Source: a virus. From it: DNA of 5,757 nt. The first letter of the stretch is position 1. Every line of letters begins with the position of its first letter. Of the stretch, positions 1-5,757 are shown piece after piece. The notes under the pieces are model-generated. The model was not told the origin of the DNA and searched no databases. It was given only the letters and a program-made list of their open reading frames with translations. A program made the translations under genes and the position numbers. The stretch is taken from IMG/VR virus record IMGVR_UViG_3300045988_004318; one strand, 5' to 3'.

Positions 1-39
1 AAAAAAAAAATAAAACAAGGTGGAATTTTGTCCACCTTG
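1..39 (-). terminator. Rho-independent terminator (duplicate copy at 5703..5741)
   Basis: Minus strand reads CAAGGTGGA-caaaat-TCCACCTTG, a perfect 9-bp stem (31..39 pairs with 16..24) with a 6-nt loop. It is followed by TTTTATTTTTTTTTT. It lies 11 nt downstream of the stop codon at 50..52. Confidence 0.8.
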
Positions 40-55
40 CTGATTTTAGTTATTT
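1..55. repeat. Terminal direct repeat, copy A; circularisation overlap of a 5,702-nt circular genome
   Basis: Bases 1..55 (aaaaaaaaaataaaacaaggtggaattttgtccaccttgctgattttagttattt) match 5703..5757 base for base. The match runs to the last base of the window. Confidence 0.95.
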
Positions 56-205
56 GTTTTCGTATTCTTTGAGTTTTTCACAGATTGCATCTGTCCATTC
101 ATCATCCATGTTGTATTCTTTTTTCAGCTCGTCTCTGTCTTTGCTTCTCCAACCGCCGTCATATAATGCTGCTGCGCTTGCTTCTACTTCTTCATTGAAA
201 AACAT
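50..205 (-). CDS. Hypothetical small acidic protein, 51 aa (MFFNEEVEASAAALYDGGWRSKDRDELKKEYNMDDEWTDAICEKLKEYENK)
   Basis: ATG at 205..203 is preceded by AAGGAGA (217..211) with a 5-nt spacer. The ORF-track start at 256 is a GTG inside the -10 box of the upstream promoter, so it was trimmed. Composition is 15 D/E versus 8 K/R. I recognise no family. Confidence 0.65.
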   Translation of the reverse strand: MFFNEEVEASAAALYDGGWRSKDRDELKKEYNMDDEWTDAICEKLKEYENK

Positions 206-225
206 ATTGATCTCCTTTCGGTTGT

Positions 226-257
226 GTGTGTTCCTTTCTACACCTTTATTATACACC
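226..257 (-). promoter_or_regulatory. Candidate operator box overlapping the -10 and transcription start of promoter P1
   Basis: Minus strand reads GGTGTAtaataaaGGTGTAgaaaggaaCACAC. The same GGTGTA-N7-GGTGTA-N7/8-CACAC layout recurs at 1832..1863, with 17 of the first 19 nt identical. Confidence 0.35.
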
Positions 258-276
258 TAAAACATACACTTGTCAA
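248..276 (-). promoter_or_regulatory. Consensus sigma70/sigmaA-type promoter P1
   Basis: Minus strand has TTGACA (276..271), a 17-nt spacer (270..254) and TATAAT (253..248). An A-rich UP-like tract (aaaaacttaaaaaaatac) lies immediately upstream. The predicted start near 241 gives a leader of about 36 nt to the ATG at 205. Confidence 0.75.
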
Positions 277-295
277 GTATTTTTTTAAGTTTTTG

Positions 296-337
296 GCTGT
301 CCGATCGGCCGTGGTCGGCCGACGATGAGAGGACAGC
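296..337. repeat. GC-rich compound hairpin in the intergenic region between VP4 and the acidic ORF
   Basis: Outer stem gctgtcc (296..302) pairs with ggacagc (331..337). Inner stem tcggccg (305..311) pairs with cggccga (316..322) around a 4-nt loop tggt. It contains two CGGCCG palindromes 10 nt apart. Flanking sequence is AT-rich, and no U-tract follows on the minus strand. Confidence 0.8.
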
Positions 338-400
338 GTAGCTTTTAGGTTAGATTTCGGTTTGTGCTCTTATTGGCCGTTCTCGTGGTTTGTAGATGGC

Positions 401-1504
401 TTAGACCTCTGTGCGTATGAGTTTGCTCATTCGTTCTTGCATTTTTTTGTCTTTCAGGTTATAATATTCCTGCATGGTCAGGCCGGTCTGCTTGAGCTGA
501 GCAAAGAGAGCGTCGTTTGCGATTCTTCGGCGTTCTCGTTTAATTGCTTTCAGTTCTTCGGATTCGGCTTTTTCTGTTATATCTTCAATTTTTTGCACTT
601 CTTCATCTGTCAGCGGTTTCGCTCCGTGGTCGATGTCGAACAGCTTGTCAAAGTATCTTGGCGGTTTACAGATTTTACCGTTTTTTAGTTGTATTTGATC
701 TCTTTCGTAGATTTCCGCTGCATGGTCGTAATAGTATTGTGCGCCGATCGCCGGTTTTTTGCTCATAAGGCATTGTTCTGGCATGATGCCTAATTCTTCA
801 TAAAATTTTTTACCGTCCTTTCCGTAAATCTTTTTTGTTGTGTACCTTGCTGTGTATGCCATAGATCGCCATTCTGCTGGTGCTAGGATGACGTGTCCCA
901 TGCCCCAGATTTTTTCTAGCCATTCGCAGTTATAGTATGTGAATCCTCTTTCTTTCTTGTAAACTTTTAAATCTTCCTGTTTTATCGGTAGATCGTAGAC
1001 AATTGCGTGATAGTGCGGTCTGTGTGTCTGGCTGCCGTATTCGCCAGCTTGGAAATACATCAGCTTGCCTTTTCCTTTTTCGTGGTATTCTATGTGTCTT
1101 CTGAGACGTTTCCAGAATTTTTGCATGTCCTCATAGTTTAGACTGAGGTTTTCTGTTATCACTTCTCCTGTCAGTGTGTCCCATGTCGCTCGATATGGGA
1201 CATTTTCGTTATTATAGGTGATTGTTAGGAACCAGGCGTTTTCATGGTATGGCAGCTCCATTTCCATTCGGTTCGCCCAGGATGCTGCATTTGCCATTTT
1301 GCATCCAGGACAGTGCCCGCATGGCAGCAGTTGAGCGTTCTGTTCTTTGAGCAGCTTTTTAACTCGCTGTTCGTTCCACTTCTGTTGTCTTTGATCTGCG
1401 TCAAACTCTAGCCTTTCGCCTGTTTTTGACAAGTATGCCTTCAGGCTGACTACTCTTTCTTGTCTGTTGATGACGGTTCTAATCAATGGTCTCGTACATG
1501 GCAT
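401..1504 (-). CDS. VP4: Replication initiator protein VP4 (HUH rolling-circle endonuclease, Microviridae gene A/VP4 family), 367 aa
   Basis: Motif I is FLTITYN. The HUH motif is HYHAIVY, with H-Y-H encoded at 1007..1015. The tyrosine motif AYTARYTTKK has its Y codons at 854..856 and 842..844. The PCGHCPGCK cysteine cluster is typical of gokushovirus VP4. Start was moved to the ATG at 1504..1502, with AAGGAGG at 1523..1517 and a 12-nt spacer. The ORF-track start at 1540 is a TTG lying inside the upstream hairpin. Confidence 0.93.
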   Translation of the reverse strand: MPCTRPLIRTVINRQERVVSLKAYLSKTGERLEFDADQRQQKWNEQRVKKLLKEQNAQLLPCGHCPGCKMANAASWANRMEMELPYHENAWFLTITYNNENVPYRATWDTLTGEVITENLSLNYEDMQKFWKRLRRHIEYHEKGKGKLMYFQAGEYGSQTHRPHYHAIVYDLPIKQEDLKVYKKERGFTYYNCEWLEKIWGMGHVILAPAEWRSMAYTARYTTKKIYGKDGKKFYEELGIMPEQCLMSKKPAIGAQYYYDHAAEIYERDQIQLKNGKICKPPRYFDKLFDIDHGAKPLTDEEVQKIEDITEKAESEELKAIKRERRRIANDALFAQLKQTGLTMQEYYNLKDKKMQERMSKLIRTEV

Positions 1505-1528: not shown

Positions 1529-1569
1529 AATGAGCCCCAATAACCTTCTTGATGTTATTGGGGCTCATT
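1529..1569. repeat. Perfect 16-bp inverted repeat (stem-loop) immediately upstream of the VP4 ribosome-binding site
   Basis: aatgagccccaataac (1529..1544) pairs with gttattggggctcatt (1554..1569) around a 9-nt loop cttcttgat. On the minus strand the 3' arm ends 5 nt before the VP4 SD. No T-tract follows on either strand. Confidence 0.9.
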
Positions 1570-1644: not shown

Positions 1645-1812
1645 TCATGCTGTTTTGTATCCTAGCGCTTCTGCATATACATCAATTGCATCCCTTATGA
1701 TATCGCTGTCGATGTATTTATCATACAGTTTGCATGTTTTGATGTACTCTATTTCTTCGATCTGTTTTTGTGTTAGGTTGATGTTCATTCTTTTTGCCAT
1801 TTGGCTTCTCAT
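1645..1812 (-). CDS. Ribbon-helix-helix-like small DNA-binding protein, 55 aa (MRSQMAKRMNINLTQKQIEEIEYIKTCKLYDKYIDSDIIRDAIDVYAEALGYKTA); absent from the ORF track because it is under 60 aa
   Basis: ATG at 1812..1810 has AGGAGGG (1825..1819) 6 nt upstream and a TGA stop at 1647..1645. The pattern is a basic N-terminus, a beta-strand-like RMNINLT, a helix (QKQIEEIEYIK) and a second helix (SDIIRDAIDVYAEAL). This matches the CopG/Arc/MetJ RHH layout by eye. Confidence 0.6.
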   Translation of the reverse strand: MRSQMAKRMNINLTQKQIEEIEYIKTCKLYDKYIDSDIIRDAIDVYAEALGYKTA

Positions 1813-1831: not shown

Positions 1832-1863
1832 GGTGTGCGATTCTTACACCCATATTATACACC
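1832..1863 (-). promoter_or_regulatory. Candidate operator box overlapping the -10 and transcription start of promoter P2
   Basis: Minus strand reads GGTGTAtaatatgGGTGTAagaatcgCACACC. The second GGTGTA and the CACACC form an imperfect inverted repeat (5 of 6). The layout parallels 226..257. Confidence 0.35.
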
Positions 1864-1882
1864 TCCTTTTTGTGTCTGTCAA
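1854..1882 (-). promoter_or_regulatory. Consensus sigma70/sigmaA-type promoter P2
   Basis: Minus strand has TTGACA (1882..1877), a 17-nt spacer (1876..1860) and TATAAT (1859..1854). The -35 box abuts the VP2 stop codon (1885..1883). The promoter drives the 55-aa RHH-like ORF and, downstream of it, VP4. Confidence 0.75.
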
Positions 1883-2857
1883 TTACCATTTTCGCATTGC
1901 TTTTCCGAGACCGTACAGGGCTGCACCTGCTGCTTTTGTTTTCGCTTTGTTTCCAGCGTCTGCGATCTTTTTGCCTGCTTCTACGGTTGTCGGCGTTGTA
2001 GTCTGTCTTCCAGACTGTTCGTTGTTGTAGGTGTTGTTTGCGGTCTGTGCAATGTTTCCAACTGTTTTTGCGCTGCTTGAACCGATGTTTTGCATGATGC
2101 TCTGCATGTAACTGGCTTCTTCCCAGTTTTTGGTTTCTTTTGCTGTGTTGATCGCCTGCATGGCGTTCTGCAGAAATTGCGCTGTGTTGTTTCCGTAGTC
2201 ATACATAGCTTGCATTGTGGCCGTGTGTGCTGCTGGAATTGCTGATGCTTGAGCGTGGCTAAACGTTGTGTTTCCTACAGCTGCCTGGCCTCCGCTGCCG
2301 GCTGACGCGCCGAATCCGTTGTATGCTGCCAGTGCCGGGTTTAGACCTGCTTTCTTTAGGTCTTCTACTCCTCTCTGGTAGGCTGTGCTGGACATCATCT
2401 GTTGCCAGTCTCGATTCTTTTGGCTCTCTTCCCGGTTAAATGCCATTGCTGAAGCTTGGCTCTGTGCTGTCAGCTCGTTTGCCCTGGCGTTTGACCATAG
2501 GTTCATCAGGTTTCCTAGTGCCCACTGTCCGCTCTGGAGGTTGTTTGCGGTTTGTGCCTGTCCGGCGTTAAAGTTGGCTGCTGCCCCTGAGTTGTTTCCC
2601 GTGATGCCCGTTAAAGCTTTTCCCAGGATATCAGATATTCCAGACGTGTTACCCTGCGTTACCTGTCCGCCTTGGGTTCCTGTTGCCTGGTTCATGTTTC
2701 CTGACATGGTCGTGTTTCCAACTTGTTGGTTCATGGTGTTTTGGTTCATTGCGCTGCTGTTCGACCCTTTCGAGTTGATATAGCTGCTTGCAACGTTTCC
2801 TAAGGCTCCTACCACGCTTGGCAGTAGCTGCAAAGCGATTGCTCCCCATCCTGCCAT
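1883..2857 (-). CDS. VP2: VP2 minor capsid / DNA pilot protein, 324 aa
   Basis: It sits immediately downstream of VP1, as in gokushoviruses. AAGGAGG (2870..2864) overlaps the VP1 stop and lies 6 nt before the ATG at 2857. The N-terminus is hydrophobic (MAGWGAIALQLLPSVVGALGNV). The body is low-complexity and rich in G/A/N/Q/S/T, typical of VP2. The call rests on position and composition rather than a sharp motif. Confidence 0.8.
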   Translation of the reverse strand: MAGWGAIALQLLPSVVGALGNVASSYINSKGSNSSAMNQNTMNQQVGNTTMSGNMNQATGTQGGQVTQGNTSGISDILGKALTGITGNNSGAAANFNAGQAQTANNLQSGQWALGNLMNLWSNARANELTAQSQASAMAFNREESQKNRDWQQMMSSTAYQRGVEDLKKAGLNPALAAYNGFGASAGSGGQAAVGNTTFSHAQASAIPAAHTATMQAMYDYGNNTAQFLQNAMQAINTAKETKNWEEASYMQSIMQNIGSSSAKTVGNIAQTANNTYNNEQSGRQTTTPTTVEAGKKIADAGNKAKTKAAGAALYGLGKAMRKW

Positions 2858-2868
2858 TTTGCACCTCC

Positions 2869-4506
2869 TTAGATCGTATCAAGGCCCGGTACGCTGTAGA
2901 TCGGCATGGGTCGTGTCCAGGTTTGGTCAAAGTAAAAATTGCAGATGAACTGATAGCTGTGGTTGGTGTCCTCAACTGCCAGCGTTCTGGCGATGTTTTC
3001 GGTACCTTCTTTGATCCAGTCGTTGGATAGTGTCGGTAGGCTTGTGTAATGATCTGCATAGTGCCATGCATCCAGGCTCTGAGCGTAGGTGCTGCGCATT
3101 TCGGATGTTACTATGTTTGTGCGGTACCTGTAATCGGCCCAGGCTTCTTGGTAGCCGAAAACTTCTTCATCCTGTGTGTTTCCCTGTGCATAGATTTCTT
3201 GATTCAACACTGGCTGCTCTCCCAAGTTTGCCAGCATTGGATCGTAGTAGCTGAATCGTGTGCTTCTCGTCCACAATCTGCCCAAACCCTGCTGATAGCT
3301 GTGATCTACTCGCACGCAGCACAGGCCCAGCACATAGCCGTGTTCTGTTGCGCTGTAGGTGCACATGTGTCTGGACATTGTTGTCATGCTGTAGGCTGCC
3401 GTGTTGCCCTGCGGACTGGTCGTGCTTGTGCTTGATGTTTGAACGACCTGGTTGATGTTGATTGGCATTCTGTAGCCGCCGATGTATTCGCTTCGGTCAA
3501 GTCGTGCGTCCGGTGAGGTTACACCCCAGGCCCCTTTCAGGATTTCTTTGTACCTGGTTCCAGTCCTGGCATCTCGCTCTAGGATGTGCTGTACTGCGAT
3601 GGAGTTTCGGAGTTCGTTGATGCTGATTCCTGATACAGCGGTAAGGTCGGCTTGCAGGTTGCCGGTGGCTACTTTCAGTACATTGCCTGTAGGTTCGCTG
3701 TATCCGGTAATTCTTGTTGCGATTGTATTTGGGTCATTTACAGCGTTTGAAATGTATGATGTTGCGTCATTGCTTGTCGTGTCCAGATAAATTACTTTAT
3801 CTGTTTTTTGTCCGTTTTCAGTCAGCCATACCGGTGCCAGGCCTGCCAGGCCGATTTCTACTCCCTGGCCTTTTTGCGGCTGCGGCAAACTGCTGGTGAA
3901 GTAGTCTTTGTGTTTGCAGACTTTGAGGATCCCCAGTCCTCTTTCTGGTTTTTCGATGTCTTTTAGGTTTTCTTTGTATTCGAGTGTTTCGTCTCCTGTG
4001 TAGACATCCACTGGCTGCTGAAGGTTTTCATCTCTGAACCACTCGTTCCAGATCTTCGCATAGGCATTGAACGGCATTCTGTTCACTTCAAGGTTGGGCA
4101 CTCCCGTTGGGATTCCCATGTAGTCTGCGATTGATCCGACTTCCCAGCCTGTTGTAGGAGGTGCTTTTGCCGTGGGTGTTGTGTATTCTACTGTTTCTGC
4201 CCAGAAGCTGCTGTCATTCTGGCCCATCATGTTTACAAAGTGGTTCCAGAGCAGGCGGCTCGGTACGAAGAAGAAGAAAATATCCATGTTACAGTTGTCC
4301 ATAACAGGATAAAGCGGAGTAGCCATGCGCACCAAACCGTTTACATCGATTTTGAAAGTATCGCCGGGAAGCACCTCGTCAACATAGATTGGCACCAGAT
4401 CGCCTTCGTTGAGTGTGGTCAGCAGTGAAAAATCTCTTTTGAATCGGCTTCTTCTGATTTCTGCGTGCGGCACTTGGGAATAGTGCTGTTCACTGTTTCT
4501 GTTCAT
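2869..4506 (-). CDS. VP1: VP1 major capsid protein (Microviridae F/VP1 family), 545 aa
   Basis: The N-terminus is canonical: RSRFKRDFSLLTTLNEGDLVPIYVDEVLPGDTF...MATPLYPVMDN...IFFFFVPSRLLW. Later blocks include INELRNSIAVQHILERDARTGTRYKEIL, and the C-terminus is YSVPGLDTI. GGAGG lies 8 nt before the ATG at 4506. Length fits gokushovirus VP1. Confidence 0.97.
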   Translation of the reverse strand: MNRNSEQHYSQVPHAEIRRSRFKRDFSLLTTLNEGDLVPIYVDEVLPGDTFKIDVNGLVRMATPLYPVMDNCNMDIFFFFVPSRLLWNHFVNMMGQNDSSFWAETVEYTTPTAKAPPTTGWEVGSIADYMGIPTGVPNLEVNRMPFNAYAKIWNEWFRDENLQQPVDVYTGDETLEYKENLKDIEKPERGLGILKVCKHKDYFTSSLPQPQKGQGVEIGLAGLAPVWLTENGQKTDKVIYLDTTSNDATSYISNAVNDPNTIATRITGYSEPTGNVLKVATGNLQADLTAVSGISINELRNSIAVQHILERDARTGTRYKEILKGAWGVTSPDARLDRSEYIGGYRMPININQVVQTSSTSTTSPQGNTAAYSMTTMSRHMCTYSATEHGYVLGLCCVRVDHSYQQGLGRLWTRSTRFSYYDPMLANLGEQPVLNQEIYAQGNTQDEEVFGYQEAWADYRYRTNIVTSEMRSTYAQSLDAWHYADHYTSLPTLSNDWIKEGTENIARTLAVEDTNHSYQFICNFYFDQTWTRPMPIYSVPGLDTI

Positions 4507-4509
4507 GCT

Positions 4510-4992
4510 TTATTCCTCCTTTTTTGGTGATTCTGCTGTGTCTGGCTGTTGTACTGCAGAATTGTCTTTCGGCATAATGCCCATTTTTTCAATCCACTCC
4601 GGTTCTCCTGCGGTTGCTGCCCAGGCATTGAAGTTGTTCCCGAACCTGTTTCGGATTTCCAGTGGCAGCGTTTCGAACTTCTCTTTCTGCTCGTTCATCA
4701 TGTTTCGCCATTCGATGTAGTTTGCAGGCAGCTTGCTGGTGTCGATGTACCAGCCAGGATTAGCCATGACCGTGGTGTCGCCTGCTGCATACCTTGCAAG
4801 GATGCTCATGGGGTCTACTTCGTCTTTGTAGCTCTGGATTTTTTCATACGTGTTGATCTCTCCGACCTGTTCAAGATAAGGTCTGCCGTCTTTATCGTAC
4901 CGCTCTTTGTATTGCGGCTCCAGAATATTGCCCGGCTCGTTTGGCTTCCTTTTCGGTTTTTCATCTCCATAGGGTGTAAAGATTTTAACCAT
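4510..4992 (-). CDS. VP3: VP3 internal scaffolding protein, 160 aa
   Basis: It lies directly upstream of VP1. Motifs resemble gokushovirus VP3: IQSYKDEVDPMSILARYAAGD, and LPANYIEWRNMMNEQKEKFETLPLEIRNRFGNNFNAW. GGAGG lies 9 nt before the ATG at 4992. The start overlaps the preceding ORF by 8 nt. Confidence 0.85.
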   Translation of the reverse strand: MVKIFTPYGDEKPKRKPNEPGNILEPQYKERYDKDGRPYLEQVGEINTYEKIQSYKDEVDPMSILARYAAGDTTVMANPGWYIDTSKLPANYIEWRNMMNEQKEKFETLPLEIRNRFGNNFNAWAATAGEPEWIEKMGIMPKDNSAVQQPDTAESPKKEE

Positions 4993-5242
4993 CCTTTTTT
5001 TCCTCCATGCTCTTTTTCACCTGTTCGATGTTCCATTCCAGCTCCGGCATACACGGTGCGATCATGCCGGTTTCGGTGTCGTACTGCCCCAGATGATAGA
5101 CCCGCTTATCCTCGCAGTCGCTTTTTTCCATCTCTTGGGTCATCCACTTGAAGGTTCTTTCCTTAACAATCGGGTTGATGACCATGATGTTGCCAAAGGT
5201 TCCTGCCAGCTCGTCCTTGATAGCATAAAGTTCAAAAGTCAT
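4985..5242 (-). CDS. VP5-like small nonstructural protein, 85 aa (MTFELYAIKDELAGTFGN...LGQYDTETGMI...)
   Basis: The pattern M.F.LY.IKD...G.F......R.F......LG.YD..TG.I resembles my recollection of gokushovirus ORF5/VP5 proteins, as do its size and its position upstream of VP3. Start was trimmed to the ATG at 5242..5240, with GGAGG 9 nt upstream. The ORF-track start at 5278 has no SD. Confidence 0.6.
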   Translation of the reverse strand: MTFELYAIKDELAGTFGNIMVINPIVKERTFKWMTQEMEKSDCEDKRVYHLGQYDTETGMIAPCMPELEWNIEQVKKSMEEKKDG

Positions 5243-5432
5243 TGTTGTTATCCTCCATAACCTCGTTGATGATATCATTTTTGTGATATTTCATCCCATA
5301 TTCGATTGCTTTTCGTGTCGCTGCCGGCACGCTGCATCCCAGTTCTTCTGCCAGATCATCAATATCGGCTGCTGTGTCGTACCTCAGTCTCACTGTCAGT
5401 GTGCAGCATGCCATGTTCTTGATGCTCTTCAC
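5232..5432 (-). CDS. Second ribbon-helix-helix-like small protein, 66 aa (from the GTG) or 60 aa (from the ATG at 5414)
   Basis: The layout is strand-like TLTVRLR, helix TAADIDDLAEELG, then helix SVPAATRKAIEYGMKY, which fits an RHH fold. The GTG at 5432..5430 overlaps the upstream TGA (GTGA) and has GGGGAGGG 9 nt upstream. The C-terminal tail is acidic. Confidence 0.55.
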   Translation of the reverse strand: MKSIKNMACCTLTVRLRYDTAADIDDLAEELGCSVPAATRKAIEYGMKYHKNDIINEVMEDNNNDF

Positions 5433-5548: not shown

Positions 5549-5655
5549 TACTCTTCCTCCTTGTCGAGTTCCAGTGCGTGGTAAATTTTATCCAGCATGT
5601 GCAGGATTTTCTTCAGGTGTCGGAAAATTGCGTTGATGTCTTGTAAAGTTACCAT
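5548..5655 (-). CDS. Hypothetical 35-aa protein (MVTLQDINAIFRHLKKILHMLDKIYHALELDKEEE), predicted amphipathic helix
   Basis: GGAGG lies 9 nt before the ATG at 5655..5653. The TAA stop overlaps the next ATG, suggesting translational coupling. I/L spacing is heptad-like. The ORF is very short, so coding status is uncertain. Confidence 0.4.
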   Translation of the reverse strand: MVTLQDINAIFRHLKKILHMLDKIYHALELDKEEE

Positions 5656-5702
5656 TTTTTTCAGCCTCCTTTTGGTAATTTTGTTTATATTCCCATTCTA
5701 TC

Positions 5703-5757
5703 AAAAAAAAAATAAAACAAGGTGGAATTTTGTCCACCTTGCTGATTTTAGTTATTT
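5703..5757. repeat. Terminal direct repeat, copy B; duplicates the terminator and the last codons of the 51-aa ORF
   Basis: Identical to 1..55. Offset is 5702 nt. Confidence 0.95.

What the first reader, a model, noticed from the sequence alone, without database searches (positions are those of the whole stretch)
226..276. Two perfect consensus promoters share a GGTGTA-N7-GGTGTA-N7/8-CACAC box across the -10 and start site (second copy at 1832..1882)
Both promoters are exact TTGACA-17-TATAAT. Beyond the hexamers they also share GGTG immediately upstream of TATAAT and A-NN-GGTGTA downstream, giving 17 of 19 identical nt. A CACAC(C) half-site then follows, inverted relative to GGTGTA. The GGTGTA copies start 13 nt apart in both promoters. 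Four of the few GGTGTA hexamers I noticed by eye fall in these two 32-nt boxes. This looks like a common operator, so one regulator could co-control the Rep operon and the acidic-ORF cassette. The two RHH-like proteins are the obvious candidate regulators.
Basis: seen in the sequence. Interest (0 to 1): 0.75.

Follow-up and report, generated by a model that had tools for sequence, protein, structure and literature searches.

The report
Shared repressor sites on two microvirus promoters
Two perfect promoters of a gut microvirus carry the same evenly spaced six-base motifs, which most likely form the binding array of a small virus-encoded repressor that limits its own gene, the replication gene and a swappable accessory gene; no such transcription factor was found described for this phage family in the literature searched.

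Summary
All genes lie on the minus strand. The only two 12/12 sigma-70 promoters (P1 276..248, P2 1882..1854) share GGTGTATAAT-N3-GGTGTA. Four of the six GGTGTA copies in the genome fall in these two promoters.

In about 60 related gut gokushovirus genomes both promoters are conserved, while unconstrained spacer bases and the gene driven by P1 vary. The element is an array of RRTGTA hexamers spaced exactly 13 bp centre to centre. Sites occur in either orientation, from beside the -35 box to about +16.

Distant relatives keep the site that overlaps the -10 box and place its partner 13 bp upstream or downstream. Some partners are inverted and lie upstream of the start site, so RNA folding cannot explain the array as a whole.

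The array co-occurs with a 55-aa ribbon-helix-helix-like protein encoded directly downstream of P2 and ahead of Rep. That protein's inferred DNA-reading residues are invariant. Six relatives without the gene have no array, and 111 unrelated phage promoters with the same -10 context lack partner sites.

The second candidate, a 66-aa protein, occurs in only 11 of 65 genomes and is not supported.

Best reading: an autorepressor operator shared by the Rep operon and an accessory cassette. Binding has not been tested.

The parts
1877..1882 (-). P2 -35 hexamer, TTGACA
   Evidence: 12/12 consensus promoter; sequence read
1871..1876 (-). P2 site 0: GACACA, an imperfect inverted site (ACAC core) abutting the -35 box
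   Evidence: Lies 13 bp from site 1. This position is variable in relatives: exact ACAC in 21, one mismatch in 7, GTGG in 8 and none in 14 of the 58 unique regions tabulated
1858..1863 (-). P2 site 1: GGTGTA; its last two bases (TA) are the first two bases of the -10 hexamer
   Evidence: Invariant in 32 distinct main-clade P2 sequences. Present as RRTGTA in every distant RHH55-family microvirus promoter examined
1854..1859 (-). P2 -10 hexamer, TATAAT
   Evidence: About half of the related lineages have TATATT here
1845..1850 (-). P2 site 2: GGTGTA over the predicted transcription start
   Evidence: GGTGTA or AGTGTA in all main-clade P2 sequences
1832..1837 (-). P2 site 3: CACACC, an inverted site 13 bp from site 2 and also the 3' arm of a possible leader hairpin
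   Evidence: Inverted in all main-clade P2 sequences. Six core pairs with site 2 are never broken in 32 distinct sequences, and one pair occurs as G-C, G-U and A-U
1645..1812 (-). RHH55: a 55-aa ribbon-helix-helix-like protein, the candidate regulator and first gene transcribed from P2
   Evidence: Invariant R8, N10, N12, L13, T14, S36, R40. Present in every genome that carries the array
401..1504 (-). Rep (VP4) replication initiator, second gene of the P2 operon
   Evidence: Pfam PF23343 (E = 1.6e-14) and phrog_942 (E = 1.6e-96)
271..276 (-). P1 -35 hexamer, TTGACA
265..270 (-). P1 site 0: AGTGTA, a direct site abutting the -35 box
   Evidence: At least 90% conserved in 31 unique P1 sequences
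252..257 (-). P1 site 1: GGTGTA overlapping the -10 hexamer
248..253 (-). P1 -10 hexamer, TATAAT
239..244 (-). P1 site 2: GGTGTA over the predicted transcription start
   Evidence: GGTGTA in most relatives, with GATGTA or AGTGTA in a few
223..230 (-). P1 (CA)n tract, CACACACA; one base out of the 13-bp register and an optional element
   Evidence: Relatives with short leaders lack it; long-leader relatives have CACACC or CACACA in phase instead
50..205 (-). 51-aa acidic ORF, the accessory gene driven by P1
   Evidence: This slot holds at least 8 unrelated small ORFs across relatives
14..41 (-). Intrinsic terminator that closes the P1 cassette
   Evidence: 11-pair stem followed by a T-run

Best explanation
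The window is a circular gokushovirus-like microvirus of about 5.7 kb, with every gene on the minus strand.

Its two perfect-consensus promoters carry an operator array of 6-bp RRTGTA sites spaced exactly 13 bp centre to centre. Sites can point in either direction. Counting from the first T of TTGACA as 0, they occupy positions 6-11, 19-24, 32-37 and 45-50. Site 1 (19-24) shares its last TA with the -10 hexamer, and site 2 (32-37) lies over the predicted start site.

P2 reads inverted, direct, direct, inverted. P1 reads direct, direct, direct.

Proposed mechanism (inferred, not shown): dimers of the 55-aa ribbon-helix-helix-like protein RHH55 occupy these sites cooperatively and block RNA polymerase at the -10 box and the start site. 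RHH55 is the first gene transcribed from P2, directly ahead of Rep. Very strong promoters would then fire early and shut themselves down. This would hold RHH55 and Rep at a set level and switch off the P1 accessory cassette in parallel.

In P2 the downstream direct and inverted sites lie in the transcript. They can also fold into a small 5'-terminal hairpin of about -4 to -6 kcal/mol, which may add mRNA stability. This is a secondary possibility.

What is shown: the motifs, their phasing, their conservation and their co-occurrence with the gene. What is inferred: the transcription start site, binding by RHH55, and repression.
For: 1. Non-chance in the window: 3 strict 13-nt site pairs, all in the two promoters, against 0.0165 expected per shuffled genome. 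It is also the top repeat family.

2. Purifying selection in relatives. Both promoters are kept in about 60 related genomes. The sites are near-invariant, while bases in the middle of the spacer, the upstream flank and the downstream leader vary. P1 and P2 keep distinct signatures (AAA versus ATG between the -10 box and site 2, and different spacers). This argues against recent copying between them.

3. DNA-level sites rather than only RNA. In distant family members the site over the -10 box persists as GGTGTA, GATGTA or AGTGTA, and its partner is always 13 bp away.
   - L125, L166 and L167 have TACATC-N7-GATGTA or TACATC-N7-AGTGTA inside the -35/-10 spacer, upstream of any transcript.
   - L128 has site 2 flipped to TACATC, with TACACT still in phase, so no hairpin is possible.
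   - L127 has three direct GGTGTA sites.
   - L164 has AACACA, GATGTA, GGTGTA and TACACC.

4. Link to RHH55.
   - 54 of 58 unique regions upstream of RHH55 homologues have at least one phased pair.
   - Six RHH55-lacking relatives (L004, L119, L120, L170, L171, L172) have none. L004 and L119 keep a homologous P1-like promoter and acidic ORF, and L170 and L171 have near-perfect consensus promoters.

5. RHH55 looks like a DNA-reading ribbon-helix-helix protein.
   - The invariant residues are R8, N10 and N12 (the alternating, inferred outward-facing positions of the N-terminal strand), T14 and S36 (inferred helix N-caps), and R40. The rest of the protein falls to 35% identity.
   - 15 of 38 members weakly match Pfam RHH_1/CopG.
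   - The AlphaFold model has pLDDT 84, with an extended N-terminus and two helices.
   - The top structural matches are nearly all ribbon-helix-helix proteins, including CopG-DNA 1ea4 (TM 0.73).

6. Not a generic promoter feature. Of 111 unrelated phage promoters with TTGACA-N13-GGTG-TATAAT, only 1 each has a partner motif at site 0, site 2 or site 3.

7. Precedents. CopG is co-transcribed with the initiator gene repB and contacts about 50 bp across the -35 and -10 boxes of its own promoter (PMC2724298). The omega repressor binds arrays of non-palindromic repeats in either orientation at several promoters (PMC2441792).
Against: - No binding, footprint, start-site or expression data exist.
- The link to RHH55 rests on co-occurrence that may reflect a single evolutionary gain, so it is confounded with phylogeny.
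- Rep is also present in every genome.
- A 13-bp spacing puts neighbouring sites about 85 degrees apart around the helix. I know of no characterised ribbon-helix-helix operator with this spacing. The CopG and Arc boxes are 9 bp centre to centre, and omega heptads are 7 bp.
- The fold assignment is weak by score: Pfam matches are below threshold, Foldseek E-values are above 1, and no strand was called in the monomer model.
- L064 has F at reading position 12 but unchanged sites.
- In L127 the downstream inverted arm is out of phase yet still complementary to site 2, which fits RNA pairing better.
- At the one variable P2 stem pair only G-C, G-U and A-U occur, and never A-C.
Confidence: 0.6

Rival explanations
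1. The elements act only in cis, with no dedicated regulator. The shared bases tune RNA polymerase contacts and the first transcribed bases. GGTGT together with ACACC forms a 5'-terminal mRNA hairpin that protects the transcript from 5'-end-dependent decay.
For: - The P2 stem (6 core pairs) is never broken in 32 distinct sequences. One pair shows G-C, G-U and A-U but never A-C, and two sequences have U-G.
- Every variant is predicted to fold, at -4 to -5.3 kcal/mol.
- L127 keeps complementarity with a different loop length that is out of the 13-bp phase.
- Both mRNAs would begin with (G)GUGUA.
Against: - Sites 0 and 1 lie upstream of the transcript, and most P1 promoters have no 3' arm.
- L111 P1 has an A-C mismatch in the stem.
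- L128 has two same-sense sites, so no hairpin can form. L125, L166 and L167 have the inverted pair inside the spacer.
- The hairpin is weak, and the z-score for the full leader is -0.34.
- Unrelated promoters and promoters from gene-lacking relatives do not carry the partner sites.
- The absence of A-C can also arise by descent from a G-T ancestor.
Confidence: 0.13
2. The direct repeats are iterons bound by the Rep (VP4) initiator, as in geminiviruses, where repeats around the TATA box of the Rep promoter serve both origin recognition and Rep autorepression. P1 sits beside a structured origin-like element.
For: - One array precedes the Rep operon. The other lies about 20 nt downstream of a conserved GC-rich nested hairpin (7 outer pairs, 4 of them compensatory, none broken).
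- The sites are direct repeats that flank a TATA-like box.
- Rep is present in every genome that has the array.
Against: - Six relatives have Rep but neither RHH55 nor an array.
- Rep drops to 49% identity within the clade while the sites stay the same.
- Distant relatives have only the P2 array, with no second promoter.
- From my own knowledge, iteron binding is not known for microvirus A/VP4 proteins.
- Two Rep-binding loci flanking the Rep operon would risk sub-genomic replication products.
Confidence: 0.1
3. The sites are bound by a host transcription factor or nucleoid protein, or by another phage protein, rather than by RHH55.
For: Conservation and phasing indicate that a protein binds, but do not identify it. 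The host is unknown.
Against: - The array tracks the RHH55 gene across divergent lineages and is absent from gene-lacking relatives out of similar gut samples.
- The 66-aa candidate is restricted to 11 of 65 genomes.
- By my own reading, the sites do not match the CcpA cre, extended -10, IHF or dif consensus sequences.
Confidence: 0.1
4. The similarity is an accident or the remnant of a promoter duplication, with no function beyond the -35 and -10 hexamers.
For: Both are perfect consensus promoters, so 12 of the shared bases come for free. GGTG ahead of TATAAT is common in other phages (more than 111 unique cases).
Against: - Outside the -10 hexamer, 11 of 13 bases are identical.
- The sites are retained in about 60 diverged genomes while neighbouring bases drift.
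- The shuffle expectation is 0.0165 pairs per genome against 3 observed.
- The repeats carry a cost: 13-nt and larger deletions between them are seen in L013, L012 and L029.
Confidence: 0.02

Closest known systems
CopG / Pcr autoregulation of the copG-repB operon of rolling-circle plasmid pMV158
   Same: - A small ribbon-helix-helix protein is encoded first and co-transcribed with a rolling-circle (HUH-type) initiator from one strong promoter.
- The repressor contacts extend about 50 bp across the core promoter and exclude RNA polymerase (PMC2724298).
- The best structural match with DNA bound is CopG, 1ea4.
   Different: - The CopG primary site is a 13-bp pseudo-symmetric element over the -35 box, with 4-bp boxes 5 bp apart. 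Here 6-bp sites are 13 bp centre to centre and lie over the -10 box and the start site.
- A second, unlinked promoter is co-equipped with the array.
- The replicon is a phage, not a plasmid.
- No antisense RNA partner was looked for.
Omega repressor of plasmid pSM19035 (inc18 family)
   Same: Arrays of short, non-palindromic repeats are read by ribbon-helix-helix dimers in direct or inverted orientation, overlap several promoters and form a small regulon (PMC2441792).
   Different: Omega heptads are contiguous at a 7-bp period, with 7-10 units per promoter. Here 2-4 hexamers occur at a 13-bp period. There is no detectable sequence relationship.
Arc and Mnt repressors of phage P22
   Same: Phage-encoded ribbon-helix-helix repressors whose operators overlap core promoter elements. 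The Arc reading strand uses alternating residues (Q9, N11, R13, from my own knowledge), comparable to R8, N10 and N12 here.
   Different: The P22 operators are palindromic 21-bp sites bound by dimer pairs in a dsDNA temperate phage. They do not control a replication initiator.
Geminivirus / CRESS-DNA virus Rep iterons around the Rep promoter TATA box
   Same: Short GGTGT-like direct repeats flank a TATA element of the promoter for a rolling-circle Rep gene and allow autorepression (from my own knowledge).
   Different: In those viruses Rep itself is the binding protein and the repeats adjoin the nonanucleotide origin hairpin. Here the array tracks a separate small protein and is absent from relatives that have Rep only.
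phiX174-type microvirus transcription
   Same: Same virus family, with constitutive sigma-70 promoters and terminators.
   Different: From my own knowledge, phiX174 is described as lacking any trans-acting transcription regulator. The literature searches here found nothing on ribbon-helix-helix proteins or repressors in Microviridae.

Membership tests
Sigma-70 (sigma-A) consensus promoter | TTGACA, a 17-bp spacer and TATAAT, oriented toward a downstream gene with a ribosome-binding site | tested here: met
   Both score 12/12 with a 17-nt spacer, and are the only such sites in the window. ATG codons preceded by GGAG/AGGAGG ribosome-binding sites begin 41-42 nt after the -10 hexamer.
Extended -10 (TGn) promoter element | TG at -15/-14, one base upstream of the -10 hexamer | tested here: not met
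   The sequence is GGTG immediately followed by TATAAT, so TG sits at -14/-13. The scan reports 'TG_before_second: no'.
Ribbon-helix-helix (Arc/MetJ/CopG) superfamily, for the 55-aa protein | N-terminal beta-strand followed by two helices | tested here: inconclusive
   The AlphaFold model (pLDDT 84) gives an extended N-terminus through residue 14 and helices at 15-27 and 35-49. No strand is assigned, which I would expect for a monomer model because the ribbon forms only in the dimer.
Ribbon-helix-helix (Arc/MetJ/CopG) superfamily, for the 55-aa protein | Significant sequence or structure match to known members | tested here: inconclusive
   - 15 of 38 homologues match Pfam RHH_1, best E = 0.0008; the window protein itself has no match.
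- The PDB profile search found nothing relevant.
- Foldseek top hits are AtaR, CopG, PrpA, ParD, Arc and AmrZ, all with E > 1.
- One source (JGI) labels a homologue an Arc/MetJ-type regulator.
Ribbon-helix-helix (Arc/MetJ/CopG) superfamily, for the 55-aa protein | Dimer that binds DNA through the paired strands | not testable with these tools
   No multimer or protein-DNA modelling was available. Indirect support only: invariant R8, N10 and N12 at alternating strand positions.
Ribbon-helix-helix superfamily, for the 66-aa protein (5432..5232) | Strand-helix-helix fold or a family match | tested here: inconclusive
   Pfam gives no ribbon-helix-helix match. PHROG 876 (repressor) scores E = 0.017. 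The AlphaFold model has pLDDT 63 and is all-helical.
CopG-type autoregulated repressor-initiator operon | Repressor gene first, initiator gene second, one promoter | tested here: met
   The order is P2, then RHH55 (1812..1645), then Rep (1504..401). No other near-consensus promoter lies between them. The order is conserved in all relatives.
CopG-type autoregulated repressor-initiator operon | 13-bp pseudo-symmetric operator (4-bp boxes 5 bp apart) centred on the -35 box | tested here: not met
   The sites here are hexamers 13 bp centre to centre and overlap the -10 box and the start site. The CopG definition is taken from PMC2724298.
CopG-type autoregulated repressor-initiator operon | The repressor binds its own promoter and represses it | not testable with these tools
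   Needs gel-shift, footprinting or reporter assays.
Omega-type repeat-array operator | Non-palindromic units used in direct and inverted orientation at several promoters | tested here: met
   P1 reads direct-direct-direct and P2 reads inverted-direct-direct-inverted. Distant relatives read inverted-direct or direct-direct-inverted-inverted.
Omega-type repeat-array operator | Contiguous 7-bp heptads of sequence WATCACW | tested here: not met
   The period is 13 bp and the motif is RRTGTA. The omega definition is taken from PMC2441792.
Rep iterons (geminivirus-like) | The repeats occur wherever the cognate Rep occurs and adjoin the origin | tested here: inconclusive
   Relatives with Rep only lack the repeats, though their Rep proteins are divergent (36% identity in L004 and L119). 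P1 adjoins a conserved hairpin. The origin has not been mapped.

The most novel reading that the evidence does not exclude
A clade of gut gokushoviruses encodes a dedicated transcription factor, something not described for Microviridae in the literature searched. A tiny ribbon-helix-helix protein would read an unusual operator made of RRTGTA hexamers in either orientation at a strict 13-bp period. The same operator-equipped perfect promoter would serve twice: once to autoregulate the regulator-Rep operon, and once as a conserved, regulated expression platform into which at least 8 unrelated small accessory genes have been swapped.
Probability: 0.5. Interest if true: 0.65.

Novelty: new variant of a known kind. 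Interest (0 to 1): 0.55.

Why it matters
Microviruses are treated as minimal phages whose gene expression is fixed by promoter and terminator strength. A virus-encoded autorepressor with a defined operator would add feedback control of the replication initiator to this family.

It would also define a compact, portable regulatory module of about 45 bp of DNA plus a 55-aa protein. Its unusual 13-bp site spacing could inform how ribbon-helix-helix dimers assemble on DNA.

The P1 cassette stands out as a regulated hotspot for accessory-gene exchange in abundant human-gut and animal-gut phages.

Every part of the model can be tested directly with a gel-shift or footprint assay and a two-plasmid reporter.

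Tried and rejected
- **Extended -10 or -16 element.** TG is one base too close to the -10 hexamer, so this was rejected as an explanation for GGTG.
- **Generic promoter property.** I used the 111 unrelated hits as a background set instead.
- **Host-factor consensus sequences.** By my own reading the sites do not match CcpA cre, IHF (8 of 9 specified bases in one variant, but not conserved) or XerCD dif. These are not tool results.
- **The 66-aa protein as regulator.** It is restricted to the window's sub-lineage, and its fold is unsupported.
- **Sequence search of RHH55 against solved structures.** Only chance ribosomal-protein matches were found.
- **Metagenome scan with a very diverse alignment.** The scan with the closer alignment returned mostly the same clade.
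- **Known RNA families.** The Rfam scan of the window found none.
- **Host identification.** I tried a 48-kb contig that carries a relative (L115). The phage occupies the terminal 5.68 kb of the part of the contig that was fetched. The join could be an integration or an assembly chimera, and this was left unresolved.
- **Head-operator co-variation.** The one homologue with an altered reading strand (L122, R-V-N) has GTATATA-type repeats instead of RRTGTA. This is suggestive, but it is a single case on a 1.4-kb contig.

Full report
**What the window is**

The 5757 bases are one circular microvirus genome of about 5.7 kb; by my reading, bases 1-57 repeat at 5701-5757. All genes lie on the minus strand. 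Pfam and PHROG searches identify:
- the major capsid protein F/VP1 (4506..2869);
- the pilot protein VP2 (2857..1883);
- the Chlamydia-phage-type scaffold protein VP3 (4992..4510);
- an ORF5-like protein (5278..4985);
- the replication initiator VP4/Rep (1504..401).

The minus-strand order around the finding is P2, a 55-aa ORF (1812..1645, called RHH55 here), Rep, a GC-rich structure, P1, a 51-aa acidic ORF (205..50), a terminator (41..14), and then the structural genes.

**Checking the observation**

- The promoter scan finds exactly two 12/12 matches, at 1882..1854 and 276..248, both with 17-nt spacers. Every other candidate scores 9/12.
- GGTGTA occurs six times against 1.48 expected, and four copies sit in the two promoters.
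- The two 19-mers that begin at the GGTG before the -10 box are identical at 17 of 19 positions.
- CACAC follows after 8 nt in P1 and 7 nt in P2.
- The repeat finder ranks this as its first direct-repeat family.
- With a strict motif and an exact 13-nt offset, the genome has three site pairs, all in these promoters. Shuffled genomes average 0.0165.

**Relatives**

An exact scan of IMG/VR for GGTGTATAAT-N3-GGTGTA returned 86 loci. About 50 are microvirus contigs of 4.5-6 kb, and several carry two copies about 1600 nt apart, as in the window. GenBank holds related gut gokushoviruses from human, pig and other animals.

Two promoter classes recur across the clade:
- **P2** always sits directly upstream of an RHH55 homologue, whose N-terminus reads MKSQ.AKR.N.NLT.
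- **P1** follows Rep and drives a small ORF that differs between genomes. At least eight unrelated families fill this slot.

Within each class the hexamers and the RRTGTA sites are near-invariant. The middle of the spacer, the upstream flank and the leader beyond about +15 vary. P1 and P2 keep separate signatures in every lineage. Their shared bases are therefore maintained independently, not homogenised by copying.

**Anatomy**

Positions count from the first T of TTGACA as 0. The motifs occupy 6-11, 19-24, 32-37 and 45-50, so their centres are exactly 13 bp apart.

| Promoter | Site 0 (6-11) | Site 1 (19-24) | Site 2 (32-37) | Site 3 (45-50) |
|---|---|---|---|---|
| Window P2 | GACACA, inverted, imperfect | GGTGTA | GGTGTA | CACACC, inverted |
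| Window P1 | AGTGTA | GGTGTA | GGTGTA | (CA)n tract, one base out of register |

Site 1 shares its TA with the -10 hexamer. Site 2 covers the predicted start site.

In the 58 unique regions upstream of RHH55 homologues tabulated, every main-clade P2 has sites 1 and 2 direct and site 3 inverted, while site 0 is variable. In P1 the third arm appears only when the leader is long. Short-leader P1 promoters run straight into the ribosome-binding site.

**DNA sites or RNA hairpin?**

In P2, site 2 and site 3 can pair. Six core pairs are never broken in 32 distinct sequences. One pair occurs as G-C (9), G-U (10) and A-U (13) and never as A-C. Small hairpins of -4 to -5.3 kcal/mol are predicted for every variant. 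This fits pairing on the sense strand. The absence of A-C could also follow from descent from a G-T ancestor.

More distant family members argue that the primary constraint is on the DNA. They were found with a profile search of 1.84 billion proteins, which returned only 47 clusters, and their contigs were then read (sequences).
- L125, L166 and L167 carry TACATC-N7-GATGTA or TACATC-N7-AGTGTA inside the -35/-10 spacer, with nothing downstream. That pair is never transcribed.
- L128 has AGTGTA, GGTGTA, TACATC and TACACT, all in phase. Site 2 is flipped, so no hairpin can form.
- L164 has AACACA, GATGTA, GGTGTA and TACACC.
- L127 has three direct GGTGTA sites plus an out-of-phase TACAC that could still pair. 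This is the one case that favours RNA.

The family-wide constant is RRTGTA over the start of the -10 hexamer, plus a partner exactly 13 bp away in either orientation. That pattern points to protein binding. An inverted operator pair that lies in a transcript forms a hairpin automatically, so the two roles are compatible.

**Which protein?**

- RHH55 homologues number 385 at E <= 1e-3, almost all of those listed on contigs no longer than a microvirus genome (at most about 5.9 kb).
- Identity falls to 35%, yet M1, R8, N10, N12, L13, T14, S36, R40 and I43 are invariant. R8, N10 and N12 are alternating residues of the N-terminal strand. T14 and S36 sit where I infer the helix N-caps to be.
- Fifteen of 38 members weakly match Pfam RHH_1/CopG.
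- The AlphaFold model (pLDDT 84) has an extended N-terminus and two helices.
- The top PDB matches by fold are almost all ribbon-helix-helix proteins, including CopG bound to DNA. None is statistically significant for so short a chain.

Co-occurrence with the array:
- 54 of 58 unique regions upstream of RHH55 homologues contain a phased pair. The four exceptions are L122 (altered reading strand), L160 (a one-base variant, GGTGTT), L123 (an 874-nt contig with no recognisable promoter) and one apparently spurious locus.
- Six relatives without the gene have none. L004/MZ821031 and L119 retain a homologous P1-like promoter and acidic ORF. L170 and L171 have near-perfect consensus promoters.

Its model is poor and all-helical. 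It cannot be the conserved partner.

**Is the array just what strong promoters look like?**

A scan for TTGACA-N13-GGTG-TATAAT gave more than 111 unique promoters in unrelated phage contigs, so GGTG ahead of the -10 box is not special on its own. Only one of those 111 has a partner motif at each of site 0, site 2 and site 3. The array is therefore specific to the genomes that carry RHH55.

**Mechanism proposed**

RHH55 dimers occupy the phased sites, cover the -10 box and the start site, and exclude RNA polymerase. The two strongest promoters would then fire at once after the double-stranded form is made and be throttled as RHH55 accumulates. This sets the Rep level and silences the accessory cassette in step.

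This copies the logic of CopG, which is co-transcribed with repB and contacts about 50 bp across its own promoter (PMC2724298). It also copies the omega repressor, which reads non-palindromic repeats in either orientation at several promoters (PMC2441792).

It differs from both in motif and in the 13-bp period, which places neighbouring sites about 85 degrees apart around the helix. Binding, repression and the start site are all inferred. I put confidence in this reading at about 0.6.

**Rivals**

- A purely cis-acting promoter and leader-hairpin role (about 0.13).
- Rep iterons (about 0.10), disfavoured because relatives with Rep only lack the array.
- A host protein or another phage protein (about 0.10).
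- Chance or a duplication remnant (about 0.02).

**Novelty**

Full-text searches found nothing on ribbon-helix-helix proteins, repressors or regulated promoters in Microviridae. The repressor-operator principle is well known. Its presence in a microvirus, the operator geometry and the second regulated cassette are new variations on it.

Noticed in passing
window 1529-1569 (minus strand, between RHH55 and Rep): A perfect 16-bp inverted repeat with a 9-nt loop lies just upstream of the Rep ribosome-binding site and has no T-run after it. Relatives keep a 16-20 bp stem at this position with very different stem sequences, which indicates heavy covariation. The loop is conserved, roughly ATCAAGAG. 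It could be an intra-operon attenuator, a processing or stability element, or a replication origin.
   Followed up: partly
window about 294-343 (minus strand, about 20 nt upstream of the P1 -35 box): A GC-rich nested structure: outer stem GCTGTCC/GGACAGC enclosing CGGCCG-acca-CGGCCG. The outer stem has 7 pairs in 9 relatives, 4 with compensatory changes and none broken. In other lineages the 5' arm can also pair with an upstream copy to form a hairpin followed by TTTT, which suggests alternative terminator-like pairings. No T-run follows the structure in the window.
   Followed up: partly
window 50-205 and the equivalent slot in L001-L172: The ORF driven by P1 is a swappable cargo. At least 8 unrelated small proteins occupy this slot behind a nearly identical promoter and before a terminator, in the manner of a moron cassette. 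The window's acidic protein belongs to the commonest family, which shares the motifs AAALYDGGWRS and EWTDAICEKLKEYE.
   Followed up: partly
L013, L012, L029 (P1 region); L004 and L119: Deletions end at the repeats. L013 has lost exactly the 13 nt between sites 1 and 2, including the -10 box. L029 joins GGTG of site 2 to the GGTGGA terminator stem. L012 fuses the promoter to the 3' end of the acidic ORF. The L004 and L119 promoter looks like P1 with the stretch from site 0 to site 1 collapsed (TTGACAAGTG-a/g-TATAAT). The repeats therefore appear prone to recombination.
   Followed up: partly
Its fold is uncertain.
   Followed up: yes
window 5655-5715 (minus strand, after the terminator): No consensus promoter precedes the structural-gene block. 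In the window's sub-lineage the region after the terminator T-run keeps GATA(G/A)AATGG-N4-TATAAACAAAATTAC. This may be a weak or atypical promoter, or late genes may depend on terminator read-through.
   Followed up: no
L115 (ENA ERZ27281030 k141_41694, 48.4 kb), locus coordinates 6174-11856: A relative's genome (5683 of its 5756 nt) forms one end of the fetched part of a 48-kb contig. The neighbouring genes encode an actin-like segregation protein (ALP_N), DUF5720, HTH_3 regulators and an FtsX/ABC transporter. This is either an integrated or plasmid-borne copy that could reveal the host, or an assembly chimera.
   Followed up: partly
L122 (Logan SRR32334798 contig), 1110-1181: This RHH55 homologue has an altered reading strand (KRSVINFT, i.e. 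R-V-N instead of R-N-N). Its promoter carries GTATATA and TATATAC repeats over the -10 box and start site in place of RRTGTA. This may be co-variation of protein and operator, but it is a single case.
   Followed up: partly
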